Assembly (NCBI GenBank): GCA_021513695.1
Contig: CP084166.1
Span: 224,001-288,000 of the forward strand
Length of the DNA stretch: 64,000 nucleotides
Direction of reading: 5' to 3'
DNA from: Candidatus Heimdallarchaeum aukensis
Lineage (GTDB): Archaea; Asgardarchaeota; Heimdallarchaeia; Heimdallarchaeales; Heimdallarchaeaceae
This document shows, piece by piece, positions 22,932-38,814 of the stretch. Numbering within the stretch: position 1 is the stretch's first letter; each line of letters opens with the position of its first letter. Under the pieces are notes generated by a model. It ran no database searches, had not been told where the DNA came from, and saw only the letters and a program-made list of their open reading frames with translations. The position numbers and the translations under genes are program-made.

Positions 22932-23566
22932 TTGAATATGCGAGAAAATGAAGAAATAGAAATTAAAGGAAAAAGTAAAATTAGAAGAATAGCATCTCTT
23001 GATTTTCAAAGAGGATTGGCAATTTGGATGATGGTTTTTTTACACGTCTGGAATCATATTTACGACTTTAGTTGGATAGATTTAGGAACAATATTTCAAG
23101 AAGCAAACTTTCTTTTTGGAATTTGGGTAATTTTCTGTGGATTTTTCGGCGGGTGGGCTGGATATTTCCTTTAATTTCTTCAACAGTTAACGCTTTAGCT
23201 TCTGTGAAAAAAGTAAGAAAAAGTGGAAGTGCTGAAAGAGTTTTAGCAAAGCAAATTCTTACAGGAATAGGGGTTCTTATAGCTGGAAGATTGACAGAAG
23301 CTTTTGGATACTACGGTTATTTTGAAGAGTCTTTAGGTCAGGAAAATCACTTTTTTCGATAGAAACTTGGACCGATACACACTACTACTCTTTTATTTGG
23401 AGAAGAATCTTTATGGTTGAAGCTCTTCAGATTATTGGCTGGGCTATGATAATTAACGCTGTTATTCAATTTTTCTTGATCAAGAATGGAGGAGCAGAAA
23501 AAACGGTAAGAAACTTGATGATTTATGCTTCTTTAGTTGTTCTTGTTGCTACTCCTTTCATATGAG
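22932..23566 (+). pseudogene. Disrupted DUF1624/HGSNAT-like acyltransferase-family membrane protein gene (at least 2 frameshifts plus an in-frame stop)
   Basis: Three consecutive ORF fragments in different frames (22932..23174, 23072..23362, 23424..23566) read as one membrane protein. The N terminus 'RRIASLDFQRGLAIWMMVFLHVWNH' matches the R..SLD..RG.A...M...H signature. A TAG stop at 23363 is followed by a TM-like tail in a third frame. Confidence 0.5.
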
Positions 23567-23595
23567 TTGAAATTTTACTTAATTTCTTCAGGACT

Positions 23596-23766
23596 CTACC
23601 CAACCAGTCAACAAACATATCGAAAGTTGTGAGGACTGGGTTAAGAGAACATGAAAGACACAGTCTTAAGTGAGTTCTCTAAAGGGTTCATCTCCTGATC
23701 CCGGGCACTCATCACTCCCACATGGAAGACCGGGTGTCGTAGGAATGAAACCTACGTCTTTAAGCA
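23596..23766. ncRNA. Candidate structured non-coding RNA of unknown class (GC-rich, multi-hairpin, ORF-free island)
   Basis: Local GC is well above the ~30% background. Hairpins: AGAGAAC(23645-51)/GTTCTCT(23674-80); CCCGG/CCGGG around 23700-23738; CGTAGG-AATGAAA-CCTACG at 23739-23757; AACCAGTC/GACTGGGTT at 23604-23642. The minus strand carries a C-box-like GUGAUGA. There is no ORF of at least 60 aa in 23567..24043. Confidence 0.3.
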
Positions 23767-24043
23767 TATAGATCAAAACACTAGATAAATGAGAATTGAA
23801 TATATAAAGACTGCAGAAAAGTTGTGACACTTCCCAATATCGTGTATTCTTTATTAATCCAAATGTGCTTCTGGTTGTTCTTGGTCTAATAACTCCACAA
23901 ACTAAAAATTTAGTTCTTTACGTAAAAAAGTATTTCATCAAAACTAAACTTCAGAGAGATGCTAAAATAATGTGGAATGGTTAAATTATAAAGAACTTTC
24001 CAGATCCTAACTCTTTTTTTCTTTTAAAAAAATGAGAAAAAGA

Positions 24044-33552: not shown

Positions 33553-33747
33553 TTATTTCTTTTCTAAATATATTACTTTTTCAAACATATTTGTAAGTGG
33601 TAATAAAACAAAAAGATTACTCTCTTCAGGTAAATTGTCGATAGAAGTGTAGAGTATAAAAGGCGAGTCTTCAGATTCTCTAATCATAATCTTAAAGAAA
33701 GGATTCAGAGAAACAATTTTTTTAATGTCTTCAATAGATATGGTCAT
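33553..33747 (-). CDS. Small hypothetical protein (64 aa)
   Basis: ORF track only. It abuts the downstream end of the TnpB element. Confidence 0.25.
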   Translation of the reverse strand: MTISIEDIKKIVSLNPFFKIMIRESEDSPFILYTSIDNLPEESNLFVLLPLTNMFEKVIYLEKK

Positions 33748-33988
33748 GATTTACTTTTTTACGTAAAGTTTTTCACACTCTGTCTTGCAAGAGAGAAAAC
33801 TAAAGGAAGTTTAATCTCTTGAACTCAACCAAGCCATACAATGCCATGAAGGGGTTGAGACAGACATCATACACGAATCGTGGGAATCATAAAGAAGAAA
33901 AGAACTAAAAACTCTTTTCTTCACTCCACGAGAGACAAAAAAGAAAGAATTACTCCTATAATAGAGAAGGAGTTAAGTTCTTTTTTGT

Positions 33989-35443
33989 CTACTGGGGCTG
34001 CAACCAATGGCTGAGCCCTCGGCAAACAGTGAAATGGGAAGAACTGAACCTTTGACCAGTGAGGTAATCAGTGATAGTTGTTCCTCGAGGACGAAAAAGA
34101 GCACCAAGGAACTTACGAGCGATATTCATTGCTCCTGTGAGGTCAGAGTGGAAAGTGTAATTGCAAGAGGGGCAATGGACTAAACCTCTAACAGGACGGA
34201 CAACTTTCCTTCCACAACGAGTACAGTGAGAGGATGTCCCTCTTTCCTCTACGGTTAATATTCGATGAGGGTCAAAACCTCTTAATATCAATGCTCGACG
34301 GAGAAGAGTAAGAACTAGAGAAAAGTTCCACTGATGAAGTTTCCTGCGAAACTTACGCGCACTGTTCCCTTTTCCTTTATCTTTTCTCACATTTTTGGGG
34401 TAACCTACGACGACGAAAAGGTCATACCTTCGAGCATAGGTCTCTATCGTCTGCACAACCTCACTTATAAATTGGTGAATATAGGACAGTTTAACGTTTC
34501 TATATCTTCTTCGGAGAAGACTAAGAAAACGATAAACTTGGTGTTTTTTACCCGACTGGTCGTTTAAAGCTGCTTTCCTCTGAAGACGGGAAAGTTTGAG
34601 TTTATATCTATGATTGATTTTATTCCATTGTTTGGTATACCAGAATTTTATTTCTTCACTTGTTAATTTCTTTTTAGGGGTTAGTAACACTCCTGCAGCA
34701 GGAATGTTTATCCCTAGATCTATTCCCAGCACAGCTGGAGGAAGAGAAGAAGAACTTTTTTTTTTAGGAGGATAAAAAGAAGGAGGAGGAAGAACTCTTA
34801 GTTGGAAATACACCCACCACTCATGTGTAGAACGTTTATATCTTAGTTCTAAACTTTTTATTCGTCCTTTCTTTAATTCCTTCTGGTGGAAAGTGCTCAT
34901 CTCTAAAGGCAACCATAACTTCTGATGATATGGGGTATTTCTTTTCCACGTATCTAACGAGTCTCTTATCCCCACCCACCAACGAGCGAGAGTGTTATTC
35001 TTCTCTTTAGGTAAATGGACGAGAACGAACCTCTTTGCATTAATTAGTTGTCTTCTTGCTCTCTTTATTGGAGGACGAGTATTATTAGGTCTATACCCTT
35101 GTTCATATAATTGTACGGCTATATCTCTACACTCTTGAAATTCATTGTGGGAACAATAAGGGAACATTTTCTTCAGATCGTGAGGGACATTCTTTCTTCT
35201 CTCTTCTTCTTTAACTTTTGAAGTAGTTAGCGTCAACTCATCTAGTTTTCCTCTATGCACTCTTATTTTCCCTTTTTTAGTTTTAGTACATATTTTTCTT
35301 CTGTTGTGGTGTATAATTCTCACATACTTTTCTATTATCCTCGTATCTCTTCCCGTTATTCTCCTTAACCTTTCCTTCTTCCTCGTCGTCAATACCTCCT
35401 TCTTTATTCTCACTTTCAAGGTTTTGACGACGTCCTTCACCAT
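33989..35443 (-). CDS. tnpB: TnpB (OrfB) RuvC-like RNA-guided nuclease of IS200/IS605 family
   Basis: 484 aa. 'VLGIDLGINIPAAG' (RuvC-I Asp), 'RRYDLFVVVGYPKNVRKDK', Zn ribbon 'CTRCGRK...HCPSCNYTFHSD', and RuvC-III 'SDLTGAMNIARK'. Confidence 0.85.
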   Translation of the reverse strand: MVKDVVKTLKVRIKKEVLTTRKKERLRRITGRDTRIIEKYVRIIHHNRRKICTKTKKGKIRVHRGKLDELTLTTSKVKEEERRKNVPHDLKKMFPYCSHNEFQECRDIAVQLYEQGYRPNNTRPPIKRARRQLINAKRFVLVHLPKEKNNTLARWWVGIRDSLDTWKRNTPYHQKLWLPLEMSTFHQKELKKGRIKSLELRYKRSTHEWWVYFQLRVLPPPSFYPPKKKSSSSLPPAVLGIDLGINIPAAGVLLTPKKKLTSEEIKFWYTKQWNKINHRYKLKLSRLQRKAALNDQSGKKHQVYRFLSLLRRRYRNVKLSYIHQFISEVVQTIETYARRYDLFVVVGYPKNVRKDKGKGNSARKFRRKLHQWNFSLVLTLLRRALILRGFDPHRILTVEERGTSSHCTRCGRKVVRPVRGLVHCPSCNYTFHSDLTGAMNIARKFLGALFRPRGTTITDYLTGQRFSSSHFTVCRGLSHWLQPQ

Positions 35444-35580
35444 CTTTCTCTTTTCTCCTTCTTTCCTCTTTTTTTTGTTTCTTCTTCTCTTTTTTATTCT
35501 ACTTTTTTCCCTATAAAAACCCCTCTCCTTCCTCTCCTCTCCTTTCTTTTTTCTCTCTACATTTTCCTCAATAATTGTAA
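35444..35580. repeat. Long polypyrimidine (CT-rich) low-complexity tract immediately upstream of tnpB
   Basis: 35300-35580 on the plus strand is almost exclusively C/T ('cctctccttcctctcctctcctttctttttt...'). The 70-aa poly-F/L ORF 35304..35516 is a translation artefact of this tract. Confidence 0.6.
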
Positions 35581-35581
35581 A

Positions 35582-36082
35582 TTACGTAAAAAATAGACGC
35601 ATGCTAGAAGTTAATTTCTTTAGAGATTCAAGAGGTATAGCTGAAAGATTATTTAGAATTGTAAACTCTAAATTCATTTTTGTTAATATTTGACTAAAAG
35701 CAGTTATCCTCTTCCTAGCATTAGACAGATGATCTCGTATGGTTGAAGGGCTATTTTGAGTAAACTTTGCTATTTCTTCTGATTTGAAATCTAAAATATC
35801 GTGAAGATAAAAACAAAGAAATTGTTTGTCAGATAAAACGGAAGAAACAGGATTAATATCAGAAAAATAACCAAGGTTTACTAATTTAGAAACAGTTTCT
35901 AAAAAATCTAATTCTTGAACTTCTTCTTTAATACTATCTTTCCTTTTAAAAGAAAAAAGAATAACTAAGGAAGCTCTTCTAATTTCCATGTTAATGAAGA
36001 GTTTTAAATGTTTAATACTTTCAGGAATTTTGGGTAAAAATTCTTTATGATCTTCATTTTTTACTAGAATCGAAAATTTCAT
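35582..36082 (-). CDS. Hypothetical protein with sigma-70 region-4-like / LuxR-like HTH
   Basis: 166 aa. 'LSDKQFLCFYLHDILDFKSEEIAKFTQNSPSTIRDHLSNARKRI' matches the sigma70_r4_2 pattern (LxxxxRxVfxLxxxeGlSyeEIAexlgisxgTVksrlhrARkkL). Confidence 0.4.
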   Translation of the reverse strand: MKFSILVKNEDHKEFLPKIPESIKHLKLFINMEIRRASLVILFSFKRKDSIKEEVQELDFLETVSKLVNLGYFSDINPVSSVLSDKQFLCFYLHDILDFKSEEIAKFTQNSPSTIRDHLSNARKRITAFSQILTKMNLEFTILNNLSAIPLESLKKLTSSMRLFFT

Positions 36083-37773: not shown

Positions 37774-37788
37774 TGTTTATCTCACGAC
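37774..37788. repeat. Left copy of the 15-bp target-site duplication 'TGTTTATCTCACGAC' of the IS481-like element
   Basis: The identical 15-mer recurs at 38800-38814, immediately outside the two inverted repeats. Confidence 0.55.
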
Positions 37789-38799
37789 TGTTTACTCTAT
37801 CCACGTTGGTAACAAATAAATAGAAAGTGGGTTACGAGGGTAAATGATGTATTATGAACAAACCCAAACGTAACCTAGAGAGACTAAGAAAGATTGTGGT
37901 TAAAAAAGCTTTGGAAGGAGAGAAGATAAAAGAGGTAGCTCACAGGTTTATGGTGAGTAGGAAGTTTGTTTACAAGTGGTTGAAGAGGTTCAGAGAGAAC
38001 CCTGAAGGAGAATGGTGGAAGAATAGATCATCTAGACCTAAAACTATACACAGGAAAGTGGATGAGGAGTTAAGAGAGAAGATAAGGGAGTTAAGAGTAA
38101 AGCAAGGAATGAACGTGGAGAAGATAGTTTATCTGTTGAAGAAAGAAGGAAGAGCATTATCGCGAAACACAGTAGTTAAAGTAATAGGAGAGTTAGGTCT
38201 TCCTCTGTGGAGTAATAGAAAAAAGAGAAACAGAACTCAATACAAGAGTTTTGAACGCTCTAGCCCTAACGAACTCTGGCAGATAGATGTGAAAGGACCA
38301 TTCTGGATAGAAGAACAAGGACAACACCTTTATCTCATAACCTTGATAGACGACCACTCACGATTCTGTCTGGGAGCTAAACTCCACCCTTTTGCACCGA
38401 AAAAAGAGCAGATAATAAGTTTGTTAGAAGGAGCAATAGAAAAATATGGACACCCCGAGTCTATCCTCACGGACAATGGAGCACTCTTCTACTCCGTTAG
38501 AGGAGGAACAAGTACCTTCTCCCGTTGGTGTCAAACAGAAGGAATAAAACACATCAGATCTAGAGTTTTTCACCCCGAAACATGCGGAAAAGTAGAAAGA
38601 CTACATGGAACCATCATCCGTGAGATGAAAAGACTAGGACTAACCTACTGTAACTCCGACCTCTCCTTCTACCGCTCTTACTACAATTTTAGCCGTCCTC
38701 ACCAGTCTCTTAACCTCCTTACCCCTGGAGAAAAATTTATGAATCACCCCTACGTTTCTCTAGTGCCCAAAAGTGTAACCCAGGTCTATTGAGTGAACA
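37789..38799 (+). mobile_element. IS481-family-like insertion sequence (single DDE transposase, 25-bp imperfect terminal IRs, 15-bp TSD)
   Basis: IRL 37789-37813 'TGTTTACTCTATCCACGTTGGTAAC' versus revcomp of 38775-38799 'TGTTCACTCAATAGACCTGGGTTAC' (18/25 match, both start TGTT). The transposase stop lies inside the IRR. Flanked by an identical 15-bp direct repeat. Confidence 0.7.
37854..38792 (+). CDS. DDE transposase with rve (integrase core) domain and N-terminal HTH, IS481-like
   Basis: 312 aa. N-terminal HTH ('VAHRFMVSRKFVYKWLKRF'). DDE triad candidates 'WQIDVKG', 'ILTDNGALF' and 'GKVERLHGT'. Confidence 0.85.
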   Translation: MNKPKRNLERLRKIVVKKALEGEKIKEVAHRFMVSRKFVYKWLKRFRENPEGEWWKNRSSRPKTIHRKVDEELREKIRELRVKQGMNVEKIVYLLKKEGRALSRNTVVKVIGELGLPLWSNRKKRNRTQYKSFERSSPNELWQIDVKGPFWIEEQGQHLYLITLIDDHSRFCLGAKLHPFAPKKEQIISLLEGAIEKYGHPESILTDNGALFYSVRGGTSTFSRWCQTEGIKHIRSRVFHPETCGKVERLHGTIIREMKRLGLTYCNSDLSFYRSYYNFSRPHQSLNLLTPGEKFMNHPYVSLVPKSVTQVY

Positions 38800-38814
38800 T
38801 GTTTATCTCACGAC
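38800..38814. repeat. Right copy of the 15-bp target-site duplication 'TGTTTATCTCACGAC'
   Basis: Exact match to 37774-37788. Confidence 0.55.

What the first reader, a model, noticed from the sequence alone, without database searches (positions are those of the whole stretch)
33780..35580. Compositionally foreign TnpB-only IS200/IS605 element with structured 3' flank (candidate omegaRNA scaffold) and a 280-bp CT-rich tract at its 5' side
TnpB has RuvC-I/II/III and a Zn ribbon. It is Arg-rich and visibly GC-richer than every host gene in the window, which suggests recent acquisition.

The ~200 bp beyond its stop (33780-33988 on the plus strand) contain several stable hairpins where the omegaRNA and right end would be encoded. 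The element's 5' side is a striking polypyrimidine run (35300-35580).

An intact TnpB with its guide scaffold would be a potentially active RNA-guided nuclease.
Basis: partly seen in the sequence, partly recalled or inferred. Interest (0 to 1): 0.5.

Follow-up and report, generated by a model that had tools for sequence, protein, structure and literature searches.

The report
Asgard TnpB guide-RNA transposon, inverted-repeat ends
This is one copy of a multi-copy, transposase-less mobile element of Heimdallarchaeum that carries a TnpB RNA-guided nuclease gene and its probable guide-RNA scaffold; it is a fairly ordinary member of a known class, except that its ends are inverted repeats flanked by CATG rather than the ends expected of IS200/IS605.

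Summary
A 484-aa TnpB-like ORF (33989-35443, minus) lies in a 1,859-bp element (33745-35603). I defined the ends from 12 full and 2 partial copies in Ca. Heimdallarchaeum endolithica plus metagenome copies.

The window is from Ca. H. aukensis, and the protein is already deposited as UJG41058.1, "transposase".

**Supported**
- The 3' flank folds strongly (z = -6.8) into a conserved multi-helix RNA with six compensatory pairs. It runs from the last ~40 nt of the ORF to the right end, which fits an omegaRNA scaffold.
- Both the 3' flank and the polypyrimidine tract lie inside the element. The tract is the Lys/Arg/Glu-rich N-terminal coding region plus a purine-rich 5' UTR with a conserved TATA box.

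**Corrected**
- The canonical RuvC-II glutamate is an invariant glycine (G347). An invariant E400, six residues before CxxC, is the known "alternative Glu" arrangement.
- The ends are 22-31-nt terminal inverted repeats flanked by CAT(G), with no subterminal hairpins and no TnpA. This is not IS200/IS605 architecture.
- The insertion splits an HTH gene at a single CATG.
- The family is long resident and diversified (copies 79-97% identical), so recent acquisition is not supported.

The mobilising enzyme is unknown. Verdict: new member of a known kind, modest interest.

The parts
33745..35603 (-). Whole element, 1,859 bp, counting the CATG at each end
   Evidence: Homology to 12 full and 2 partial H. 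endolithica copies starts and stops here (blastn; MAFFT of both ends).
35573..35603 (-). Left end: CATG followed by the left arm of the terminal inverted repeat (CATGCGTCTATTTTTTACGTAATTTACAATT)
   Evidence: The pattern CATG-N6-TTTTTTACGTAA matches with zero mismatches only at the two termini. Subfamily 2 shows a 31-nt, 84% complementary TIR. A 43%-identical relative, L016, has a different 31-nt TIR that also starts with CATG.
35512..35519 (-). Conserved TTTTTATA, a candidate archaeal TATA box about 70 nt upstream of the ATG
   Evidence: Conserved in all copies of both subfamilies and in L016. Its promoter function is inferred.
35444..35580 (-).
   Evidence: 87% pyrimidine on the + strand. It is present in every copy but variable in length, and is the least conserved part between subfamilies (0.58 identity).
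33989..35443 (-). TnpB-like ORF, 484 aa, identical to UJG41058.1. Key codons: D242 at 34718-34720, G347 at 34403-34405, E400 at 34244-34246, D434 at 34142-34144. Zinc-ribbon cysteines are C407, C410, C424 and C427.
33745..34027 (-). Candidate omegaRNA scaffold: 12 helices, overlapping the last 39 nt of the ORF and ending at the right end
   Evidence: z = -6.8. 78 pairs are 98.8% paired, against 40-52% when the partners are slid. Six pairs carry compensatory changes. Rfam has no matching family.
33745..33775 (-). Right arm of the inverted repeat, ending ...AAAAAGTAAATCATG. In the RNA model it pairs with upstream GUGGAGU and with GUUUGC inside the ORF.
   Evidence: It is the most conserved non-coding part (0.875 identity between subfamilies).
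33725..33744 (-). Predicted guide-encoding flank (ACCATATCTATTGAAGACAT). This is host DNA immediately 3' of the right end.
   Evidence: Inferred from the position of guides in characterised TnpB and Fanzor systems. Homology between copies ends at 33745. Not tested.
35600..35604 (-). Left-flank G plus CATG: the target site and candidate TAM (VCATG)
   Evidence: In 19 independent left junctions the base before CAT is C in 10, A in 5, G in 4 and T in 0. The right end always reads TCAT.
35585..36082 (-). N-terminal fragment of the interrupted host HTH (Sigma70_r4_2-like) gene. Its last 5 codons (plus the stop at 35582-35584) come from the element's left end.
33553..33747 (-). C-terminal fragment of the same host gene
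   Evidence: The uninterrupted 223-aa homologue P0122 (75% identity) spans both fragments, with a single Met (ATG) at the junction.

Best explanation
The feature is a non-autonomous transposable element of Ca. Heimdallarchaeum aukensis.

**What it carries**
- One gene, a divergent TnpB-family RNA-guided nuclease of the "alternative glutamate" type. The putative catalytic residues are D242, E400 (relocated) and D434, with a CxxC...CxxC zinc ribbon.
- Its own TATA-type promoter.
- A ~280-nt structured RNA scaffold that overlaps the 3' end of the gene and runs to the right end.

**Ends and insertion**
- The element is bounded by 22-31-nt terminal inverted repeats.
- It sits at a CATG, with CAT(G) on both sides and a single CATG in the empty site.
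- Here it splits a 224-aa HTH protein gene.

**Inferred mechanism**
1. An enzyme encoded elsewhere binds the inverted repeats and moves the element. Symmetric ends point to a DDE-type or other double-strand transposase rather than the hairpin-dependent Y1 TnpA of IS200/IS605.
2. Transcription through the right end yields an omegaRNA whose last ~16-20 nt are copied from the flanking host DNA.
3. TnpB with this RNA cuts alleles that have lost the element. In those alleles the guide match lies next to a left-flank motif VCATG.
4. Repair from an occupied chromosome copy restores the element.
5. The occupied site reads TCATG and is spared.

**Shown:** the boundaries, the inverted repeats, the single CATG in the empty site, multi-copy mobility, the conserved RNA structure and the catalytic-residue pattern.

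**Inferred:** RNA expression, the guide position, the TAM, nuclease activity and the nature of the transposase.
For: **Boundaries and copy number**
- 14 loci in H. endolithica, 9 metagenome loci, and other H. aukensis paralogues in the same 90% protein cluster.
- 9 of 13 full copies keep an intact ORF.

**Inverted repeats**
-.
- A relative at 43% aa identity in another Heimdall MAG has the same layout: CATG, a 31-nt TIR of different sequence, a TATA box, a TnpB gene, a ~220-nt 3' region, a TIR and TCATG.

**Empty site**
- The uninterrupted homologue P0122/L015 has one ATG at the junction.
- A one-CATG model restores long ORFs across the junction at the window copy and at L004, L007, L008 and L010. 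Models with zero or two CATG do not.

**Protein**
- Pfam TNB, NCBIfam guided_TnpB E = 9e-25, and a profile hit to Cas12f/TnpB structures at E = 1e-19.
- That alignment places G347 on the canonical QMEDL glutamate.
- D242, G347, E400, D434 and three of the four zinc-ribbon cysteines (C407, C410, C424) are invariant across 33 relatives; C427 is nearly invariant.
- 110 of 112 full-length relatives match the published Ealt expression D{P}G...E-x6-CxxC...CxxC...D when its D-to-E spacing is relaxed to 120-190 residues, and all 112 have E-x6-CxxC.
- The fold matches TnpB, Cas12f and Fanzor2.

**RNA**
-.
- Third codon positions in the last 60 nt of the ORF are more conserved than the ORF average, 0.79 against 0.70.

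**TAM-like asymmetry**
- 0 of 19 left junctions have T before CAT, while the right end always has T.

**Precedents**
- TnpBs with symmetric ends, and solo TnpBs apparently mobilised in trans (PMC10691335).
- Fanzor elements in which the TIR and TSD are folded into the guide-RNA scaffold (PMC10711439).
Against: - No transposase was found in the element, beside any of the ~25 related loci, or linked to the same repeats. The mobilising step is therefore unproven.
- The target preference is asymmetric. This fits a strand-specific IS200/IS605-like enzyme at least as well as a symmetric double-strand transposase.
- The register of any duplication (AT, CAT, CATG or none) cannot be read from the sequence.
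- The protein scores below NCBIfam's curated TnpB cut-off (87.7 against 100 bits) and lacks the canonical RuvC-II Glu. The spatial position of E400 could not be measured.
- No RNA expression data are available.
- Covariation is modest, because the copies are closely related.
Confidence: 0.6

Rival explanations
1. It is a TnpB-only (IS1341-type) member of IS200/IS605. A Y1 HUH TnpA encoded elsewhere would move it as single-stranded DNA. It would insert 3' of a short motif (VCAT or VCATG) without duplication, and the right end would simply finish with a similar motif (TCATG).
For: - The target is asymmetric: the base before the left CAT is never T (0 of 19), while the mirror position after the right CATG is unconstrained.
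- One CATG in the empty site is what target-adjacent insertion without duplication would give.
- TnpB is most often linked to Y1 or serine TnpA (PMC10691335).
- The fourth base differs between the two sides in L006, L008, L009 and L034.
Against: - The ends are 22-31-nt inverted repeats, and they co-vary as inverted repeats in a 43%-identical relative.
- The terminal 60 nt form no hairpin on either strand in the window copy or in L011 (z about 0).
- No Y1 gene lies beside any relative examined.
Confidence: 0.25
2. It is a domesticated or decaying TnpB remnant that no longer moves or cuts. The structured 3' region would be only a transcription terminator, or protein-binding repeats, rather than a guide RNA.
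For: - The canonical RuvC-II Glu is lost and the NCBIfam score is below cut-off.
- No transposase is present.
- The closest copies are only 97% identical, so there has been no very recent burst.
- Some relatives (P0077, P0087, P0104) sit at fixed, syntenic loci.
Against: - Insertions lie at many unrelated sites, in both orientations, and interrupt genes that are otherwise intact.
- The window site is empty in a relative.
- 9 of 13 full copies keep an intact ORF, and codon positions 1+2 are far more conserved than position 3, 0.89 against 0.70.
- E400 and the other putative catalytic residues are invariant, matching a rearrangement that is active in Fanzors.
- The RNA shows compensatory changes in internal helices that a terminator would not need.
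Confidence: 0.1

Closest known systems
ISDra2 / IS608-type TnpB-omegaRNA (OMEGA) elements of IS200/IS605
   Same: - A single compact RuvC plus zinc-ribbon nuclease with the TnpB fold.
- A structured RNA that overlaps the 3' end of the gene and reaches the right end, with the guide expected in the adjacent flank.
- A short conserved motif on the left flank.
   Different: - The ends are inverted repeats without hairpins.
- There is no Y1 TnpA.
- The canonical RuvC-II Glu is replaced by Gly, with a relocated Glu.
- The right end carries the same CAT(G) as the target.
- Sequence identity to solved TnpBs is only ~13-15%.
TnpBs with a rearranged RuvC-II site (the RIIr branches of Altae-Tran et al. 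2023; the Ealt clade of Yoon et al. 2023) and Fanzors
   Same: - Glu to Gly at the canonical position, with a Glu exactly six residues before the first CxxC. This places it at the end of beta-5 rather than beta-4.
   Different: - RuvC-I is D-L-G, not the D-P-G fingerprint of Fanzors and cyanobacterial "pro-Fanzors". None of 112 relatives has DPG.
- The host is archaeal.
- There is no IS607 serine recombinase.
DDE-transposase-associated TnpBs with symmetric ends, and solo TnpBs carrying the same ends (Altae-Tran et al. 2023, PNAS)
   Same: - Inverted terminal repeats.
- The 3' end of the TnpB gene lies within ~250 bp of the transposon end.
- The TnpB-only form is presumably mobilised in trans.
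   Different: - No DDE partner has been identified for this family.
- The target is CATG rather than, for example, the TA of IS630.
- The lineage is restricted to Asgard archaea.
Non-autonomous Fanzor1 / Fanzor2* elements in eukaryotic TIR+TSD transposons (for example Spodoptera frugiperda ascovirus 1a; Yoon et al. 2023)
   Same: - A nuclease-only element with TIRs and a short flanking repeat, moved by an unknown transposase.
- The TIR is predicted to be part of the guide-RNA scaffold.
- An Ealt active site.
   Different: - The host is prokaryotic, the protein is not a Fanzor by its fingerprint, and there is no evidence of direct descent.
- Foldseek ranks Cas12f and TnpB above Fanzor2.
aCas1-associated TnpBs of Asgard archaea (the Cas1H-Asgard groups of Altae-Tran et al. 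2023)
   Same: - An Asgard-specific TnpB lineage flanked by repeats.
- A Thorarchaeota relative at 35% identity (L019) carries the reported GTTCACTCA motif as the tip of its inverted repeat.
   Different: - This element has neither that motif nor a hypervariable internal region.
- No Cas1 gene was seen beside any relative. The large neighbouring genes in Thorarchaeota have no Cas1 domain.

Membership tests
TnpB superfamily (RNA-guided RuvC nucleases) | RuvC-I Asp, RuvC-III Asp and the C4 zinc ribbon between RuvC-II and RuvC-III | tested here: met
   D242, D434, C407, C410 and C424 are invariant and C427 nearly invariant in 33 relatives. They align to the catalytic motifs of Cas12f and TnpB. 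Pfam PF07282 scores 38.2 bits against a cut-off of 26.3.
TnpB superfamily (RNA-guided RuvC nucleases) | Canonical RuvC-II glutamate, about 50 residues before the zinc finger | tested here: not met
   Invariant G347 aligns to the Glu of AsCas12f QMEDL. An invariant Glu sits six residues before CxxC instead, which is the known alternative arrangement.
TnpB superfamily (RNA-guided RuvC nucleases) | Overall WED-REC-RuvC-TNB fold | tested here: met
   The AF2 model has pLDDT 83.6. The top 14 Foldseek PDB hits are all Cas12f, TnpB or Fanzor2, with probability 1.00.
TnpB superfamily (RNA-guided RuvC nucleases) | Curated family score (NCBIfam NF040570 guided_TnpB) | tested here: not met
   87.7 bits against a cut-off of 100, with E = 9e-25. 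The protein is a divergent member, which explains its GenBank name "transposase".
TnpB superfamily (RNA-guided RuvC nucleases) | Cognate omegaRNA encoded at the 3' end, and RNA-guided, TAM-dependent DNA cleavage | not testable with these tools
   Only the conserved structure could be shown. Expression and cleavage need experiments.
IS200/IS605 insertion sequences | Y1 HUH transposase TnpA, in the element or in sibling copies | tested here: not met
   The element holds one ORF. No transposase gene lies beside the ~25 related loci. Whole genomes could not be scanned.
IS200/IS605 insertion sequences | No terminal inverted repeats; subterminal hairpins at both ends on one strand | tested here: not met
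   A 22-31-nt TIR is present. ssDNA folds of the terminal 60 nt on both strands give z between -0.1 and +1.1.
IS200/IS605 insertion sequences | Insertion 3' of a specific tetra- or pentanucleotide without target duplication | tested here: inconclusive
   One CATG in the empty site and an asymmetric V before CAT fit this. A 2-4-bp duplication fits equally well.
IS607 insertion sequences | Serine recombinase TnpA; no terminal inverted repeats | tested here: not met
   No such gene was seen, and TIRs are present.
Fanzor / pro-Fanzor lineage | DPG in RuvC-I together with Ealt in RuvC-II | tested here: not met
   Ealt is present, but RuvC-I is DLG. None of 112 relatives has DPG. The fingerprint is defined in PMC10711439.
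TIR-bounded (DDE-type) transposons carrying TnpB as passenger | Terminal inverted repeats conserved as repeats across diverged members | tested here: met
   Subfamily 1, subfamily 2 and L016 have different repeat sequences, each inverted at both ends.
TIR-bounded (DDE-type) transposons carrying TnpB as passenger | A partner transposase bounded by the same repeats, and a true target-site duplication | tested here: inconclusive
   No partner was found in the DNA held. CAT(G) on both sides is compatible with a duplication but does not prove one.

The most novel reading that the evidence does not exclude
Heimdallarchaeia, among the closest archaeal relatives of eukaryotes, may host a previously undescribed class of double-strand, TIR-bounded, CATG-specific transposons. 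Their only cargo would be an alternative-glutamate TnpB whose guide RNA has absorbed the inverted repeat. This would be a prokaryotic counterpart of the Fanzor1-type arrangement. They would be moved either by a transposase class not yet linked to TnpB or, more radically, without a dedicated transposase.
Probability: 0.12. Interest if true: 0.7.

Novelty: new member of a known kind. Interest (0 to 1): 0.3.

Why it matters
If active, this is a compact (484 aa) archaeal RNA-guided nuclease with a Fanzor-like relocated catalytic glutamate and a probable 5-nt TAM (VCATG). That gives it some value for comparative study of TnpB and Fanzor, and as an editing scaffold.

The element also shows that "TnpB-only" copies should not be filed under IS200/IS605 by default. 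Here the ends point to a different, still unidentified, mobilising enzyme in Asgard archaea.

For annotation of the H. aukensis genome, it explains a truncated 166-aa "sigma-70 region 4" ORF and a 64-aa orphan ORF: they are the two halves of one interrupted gene.

Tried and rejected
**Searches that found nothing useful**
- Rfam at gathering and at permissive thresholds gave no family for the 3' RNA.
- A single-sequence search of the PDB matched only the zinc ribbon; a profile was needed.
- I looked for a partner transposase among the neighbours of 7 relatives fetched through the look-up of encoding contigs, in the 14 genome loci and in the 9 metagenome loci. None was found.
- The ~1,600-aa genes beside the Thorarchaeota relatives have no Cas1 or any other Pfam domain.
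- The TIR pattern hit IMG/VR 16 times as single matches with no extension, consistent with chance. TnpB relatives in IMG/VR and in plasmids are only 21-35% identical over substantial alignments.
- No right-end-to-left-end circle or tandem junction occurs in any DNA held.

**Tests that could not be completed**
- To fix the register of the duplication, I searched for an uninterrupted allele of the L008 site. Only the two split halves exist in the database.
- H. aukensis paralogues could not be fetched because they are not indexed.
- The supplements of the PNAS classification paper and Makarova et al. 2020 are not held, so I could not assign the protein to a named branch.

**Ideas considered and dropped**
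- A hypervariable internal guide, as reported for aCas1-TnpB loci. The variable stretches in the 3' region are hairpin loops and stems with compensatory changes, not spacer-like.
- A left-end/right-end "panhandle" pairing as the reason for the repeats. The mismatches between the arms show no G-T wobble bias.
- I did not attempt a covariance model of the RNA, because calibrating a ~300-position model would exceed the time limit.
Full report
**What is there**

The window is AT-rich (GC 0.29). It comes from Ca. Heimdallarchaeum aukensis: the truncated ORF at 35585-36082 is 100% identical to a deposited H. aukensis protein, and the TnpB-like protein is exactly UJG41058.1, "MAG: transposase".

The ORF 33989..35443 (-) encodes 484 aa. 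It passes Pfam's gathering score for the Cas12f1-like TNB zinc ribbon. It hits NCBIfam guided_TnpB at E = 9e-25, but at 87.7 bits it is below the curated 100-bit cut-off.

A profile of 33 relatives reaches solved Cas12f and TnpB structures at E = 1e-19. The AlphaFold model (pLDDT 83.6) has Cas12f, TnpB and Fanzor2 as its best structural matches over the full length.

The composition claim holds. The ORF has GC 0.397 and GC3 0.353, against GC3 0.16-0.25 for host ORFs. Only the neighbouring rve-type transposase gene is GC-richer.

**Boundaries**

blastn and MAFFT against 12 full and 2 partial copies in Ca. H. endolithica show that homology begins at 35603 and ends at 33745. Two consequences follow:

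- The 244 nt after the stop codon are part of the element.
- So is the "CT-rich tract". 35300-35443 is the Lys/Arg/Glu-rich N-terminal coding region. 35444-35580 is a purine-rich (on the gene strand) 5' untranslated region containing a TTTTTATA box that is conserved in every copy.

**Ends**

Each end carries CATG.

- The left end reads CATG-CGTCTA-TTTTTTACGTAA.
- The reverse complement of the right end reads CATG-ATTTAC-TTTTTTACGTAA.
- In the second subfamily the inverted repeat is 31 nt at 84% complementarity.
- A relative with only 43% protein identity, from another Heimdall MAG (L016), has a 31-nt inverted repeat of quite different sequence. It also starts with CATG, is followed by a TATA box, and its right end also reads TCATG.

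The inverted repeats are therefore a family feature that evolves in concert. The terminal 60 nt form no single-strand hairpins in the window copy or in L011 (z about 0). These are not IS200/IS605 or IS607 ends.

**Insertion site**

The two minus-strand ORFs flanking the element are halves of one gene: 166 aa with a Sigma70_r4_2-like HTH domain, and 64 aa.

- A 223-aa uninterrupted homologue (P0122, 75% identity) spans both halves, with a single Met at the junction. Its DNA reads AAT-ATG-ACT there.
- Joining the flanks with exactly one CATG restores long reading frames at five insertions: the window copy, L004, L007, L008 and L010. Zero or two CATG do not.

So the empty site holds one CATG. Only CAT is invariant on both sides. 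The fourth base is G in 18 of 19 left junctions, and G in 15, A in 2 and T in 1 of the right junctions.

For that reason I cannot tell the following apart from sequence alone: a duplication of AT, of CAT or of CATG, or insertion 3' of CAT without duplication. A search for an uninterrupted allele that would have settled this found none.

**Target asymmetry**

In 19 independent left junctions the base before CAT is C in 10, A in 5, G in 4 and T in 0. The expected T frequency is about 0.35, so the uncorrected probability of no T is about 3e-4. The right end always reads TCAT. The mirror position after the right CATG is A in 8 of 18.

A TAM of the form VCATG would let TnpB cut the restored empty site while sparing the occupied one. 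This is an inference. A strand-specific transposase would give the same pattern.

**Catalytic site**

D242 (G-I-D-L-G), D434 and three of the four zinc-ribbon cysteines are invariant; the fourth (C427) is nearly invariant. The canonical RuvC-II position, the Glu of AsCas12f QMEDL, is an invariant Gly (G347). An invariant Glu (E400) lies six residues before the first CxxC, at the end of the next beta-strand.

This matches two published descriptions:

- the "Ealt" arrangement that Yoon et al. describe for Fanzors and a TnpB clade (E-x6-CxxC);
- the Glu-to-Gly "RIIr" rearrangement of Altae-Tran et al..

110 of 112 full-length relatives match the published regular expression with its D-to-E spacing relaxed to 120-190 residues. 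All of these have D-Phi-G and none has the Fanzor D-P-G.

It is not met in spirit, because this is a conserved and known functional rearrangement.

**RNA**

The strand 34035-33745 folds with z = -6.8. On 15 copies the consensus has 78 pairs in 12 helices.

- 98.8% of cells are paired, against 40-52% when the partners are slid by 1-3 columns.
- Six pairs carry compensatory changes.
- The right inverted repeat is part of the fold. ACUUUAC pairs with GUGGAGU, and GUAAAU pairs with GUUUGC inside the ORF.

This recalls Fanzor elements, in which the TIR and TSD are absorbed into the scaffold.

Between subfamilies the right repeat (0.875 identity) and the 3' UTR (0.735) are more conserved than third codon positions (0.695). 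The last 60 nt of the ORF have unusually conserved third positions (0.79). Rfam has no matching family.

**Mobility and age**

Copies are 79-97% identical and fall into two subfamilies with mosaic members (L003, L033). 9 of 13 keep intact ORFs.

The lineage is narrow. Only 30 of 1.84 billion 50%-identity cluster representatives reach E <= 1e-30. Named relatives are Heimdall- and Thorarchaeota.

The element is long resident, not recently acquired. Its higher GC is a standing property shared with the other IS in the window.

**What moves it**

No transposase lies in the element or beside any relative examined. The repeat pattern occurs nowhere else in the DNA I hold, except for a right-end-like sequence at 23918-23939.

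The literature already reports TnpBs with symmetric ends linked to DDE transposases, solo TnpBs with the same ends, and Asgard aCas1-linked TnpBs. A Thorarchaeota relative carries the GTTCACTCA motif reported for the aCas1 group.

I therefore read this element as a trans-mobilised, TIR-bounded TnpB/omegaRNA element. The main rival is an IS200/IS605-like single-strand mechanism.

**Verdict**

This is a real, probably functional TnpB element. It is already annotated generically as "transposase" and belongs to known categories. Its noteworthy but modest peculiarity is its non-IS605 ends.

Noticed in passing
window 23563-23941 (+): A GC-richer, non-coding stretch of ~380 bp. It starts with a left-end-like sequence (CATATGAGTTGAAATTTTACTTAATTTC) and ends with ...TTTACGTAAAAAAGTATTTCATC, which closely resembles the right end of the TnpB element. 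It has CAT on both sides and no TnpB remnant. It may be a miniature relative without the nuclease gene. Its first ~65 nt recur at L002:7236-7302 in H. endolithica, next to what looks like the 3' end of a tRNA gene.
   Followed up: partly
window 37774-38814: A second mobile element. An rve/DDE integrase with N-terminal HTH domains occupies 37854-38792 (+), with GC3 0.42. It is bracketed by a 15-nt direct repeat, TGTTTATCTCACGAC, at 37774-37788 and 38800-38814. Its ends are unrelated to those of the TnpB element.
   Followed up: partly
L019:1-4734, L028:1-3748 (Thorarchaeota contigs): TnpB relatives at ~35% identity sit next to a divergently oriented gene of ~1,600 aa with no Pfam domain. The neighbourhood recurs with two different TnpBs (P0087, P0104) and is syntenic across MAGs. 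In L019 the TnpB is flanked by the inverted repeat GAGTGAAC.../...GTTCACTCA, the motif reported for aCas1-linked Asgard TnpBs.
   Followed up: partly
L046 vs L047, right end (about L047:1955-2005): The same insertion, beside a tRNA gene and upstream of an RNA polymerase subunit gene, appears in two samples. One strain lacks the last ~50 nt of the right end, including the inverted repeat. The deletion runs from 'tctc' to the terminal ATG.
   Followed up: no
L003, L033: Mosaic copies. The left repeat and 5' part resemble subfamily 1, and the 3' third and right repeat resemble subfamily 2. This indicates recombination between copies.
   Followed up: partly
L037:1077-2733: A copy with an apparently complete TnpB gene (82% identity across residues 2-484 of the query). 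It lacks both inverted repeats and the last ~180 nt of the 3' region. It is probably an immobilised or truncated copy.
   Followed up: no
L002 and L011 right junctions: At these two insertions the ATG of the right-hand CATG is followed by a long open frame (265-267 codons), with only a short frame upstream. The element may therefore sit exactly on a host start codon and regenerate it.
   Followed up: no
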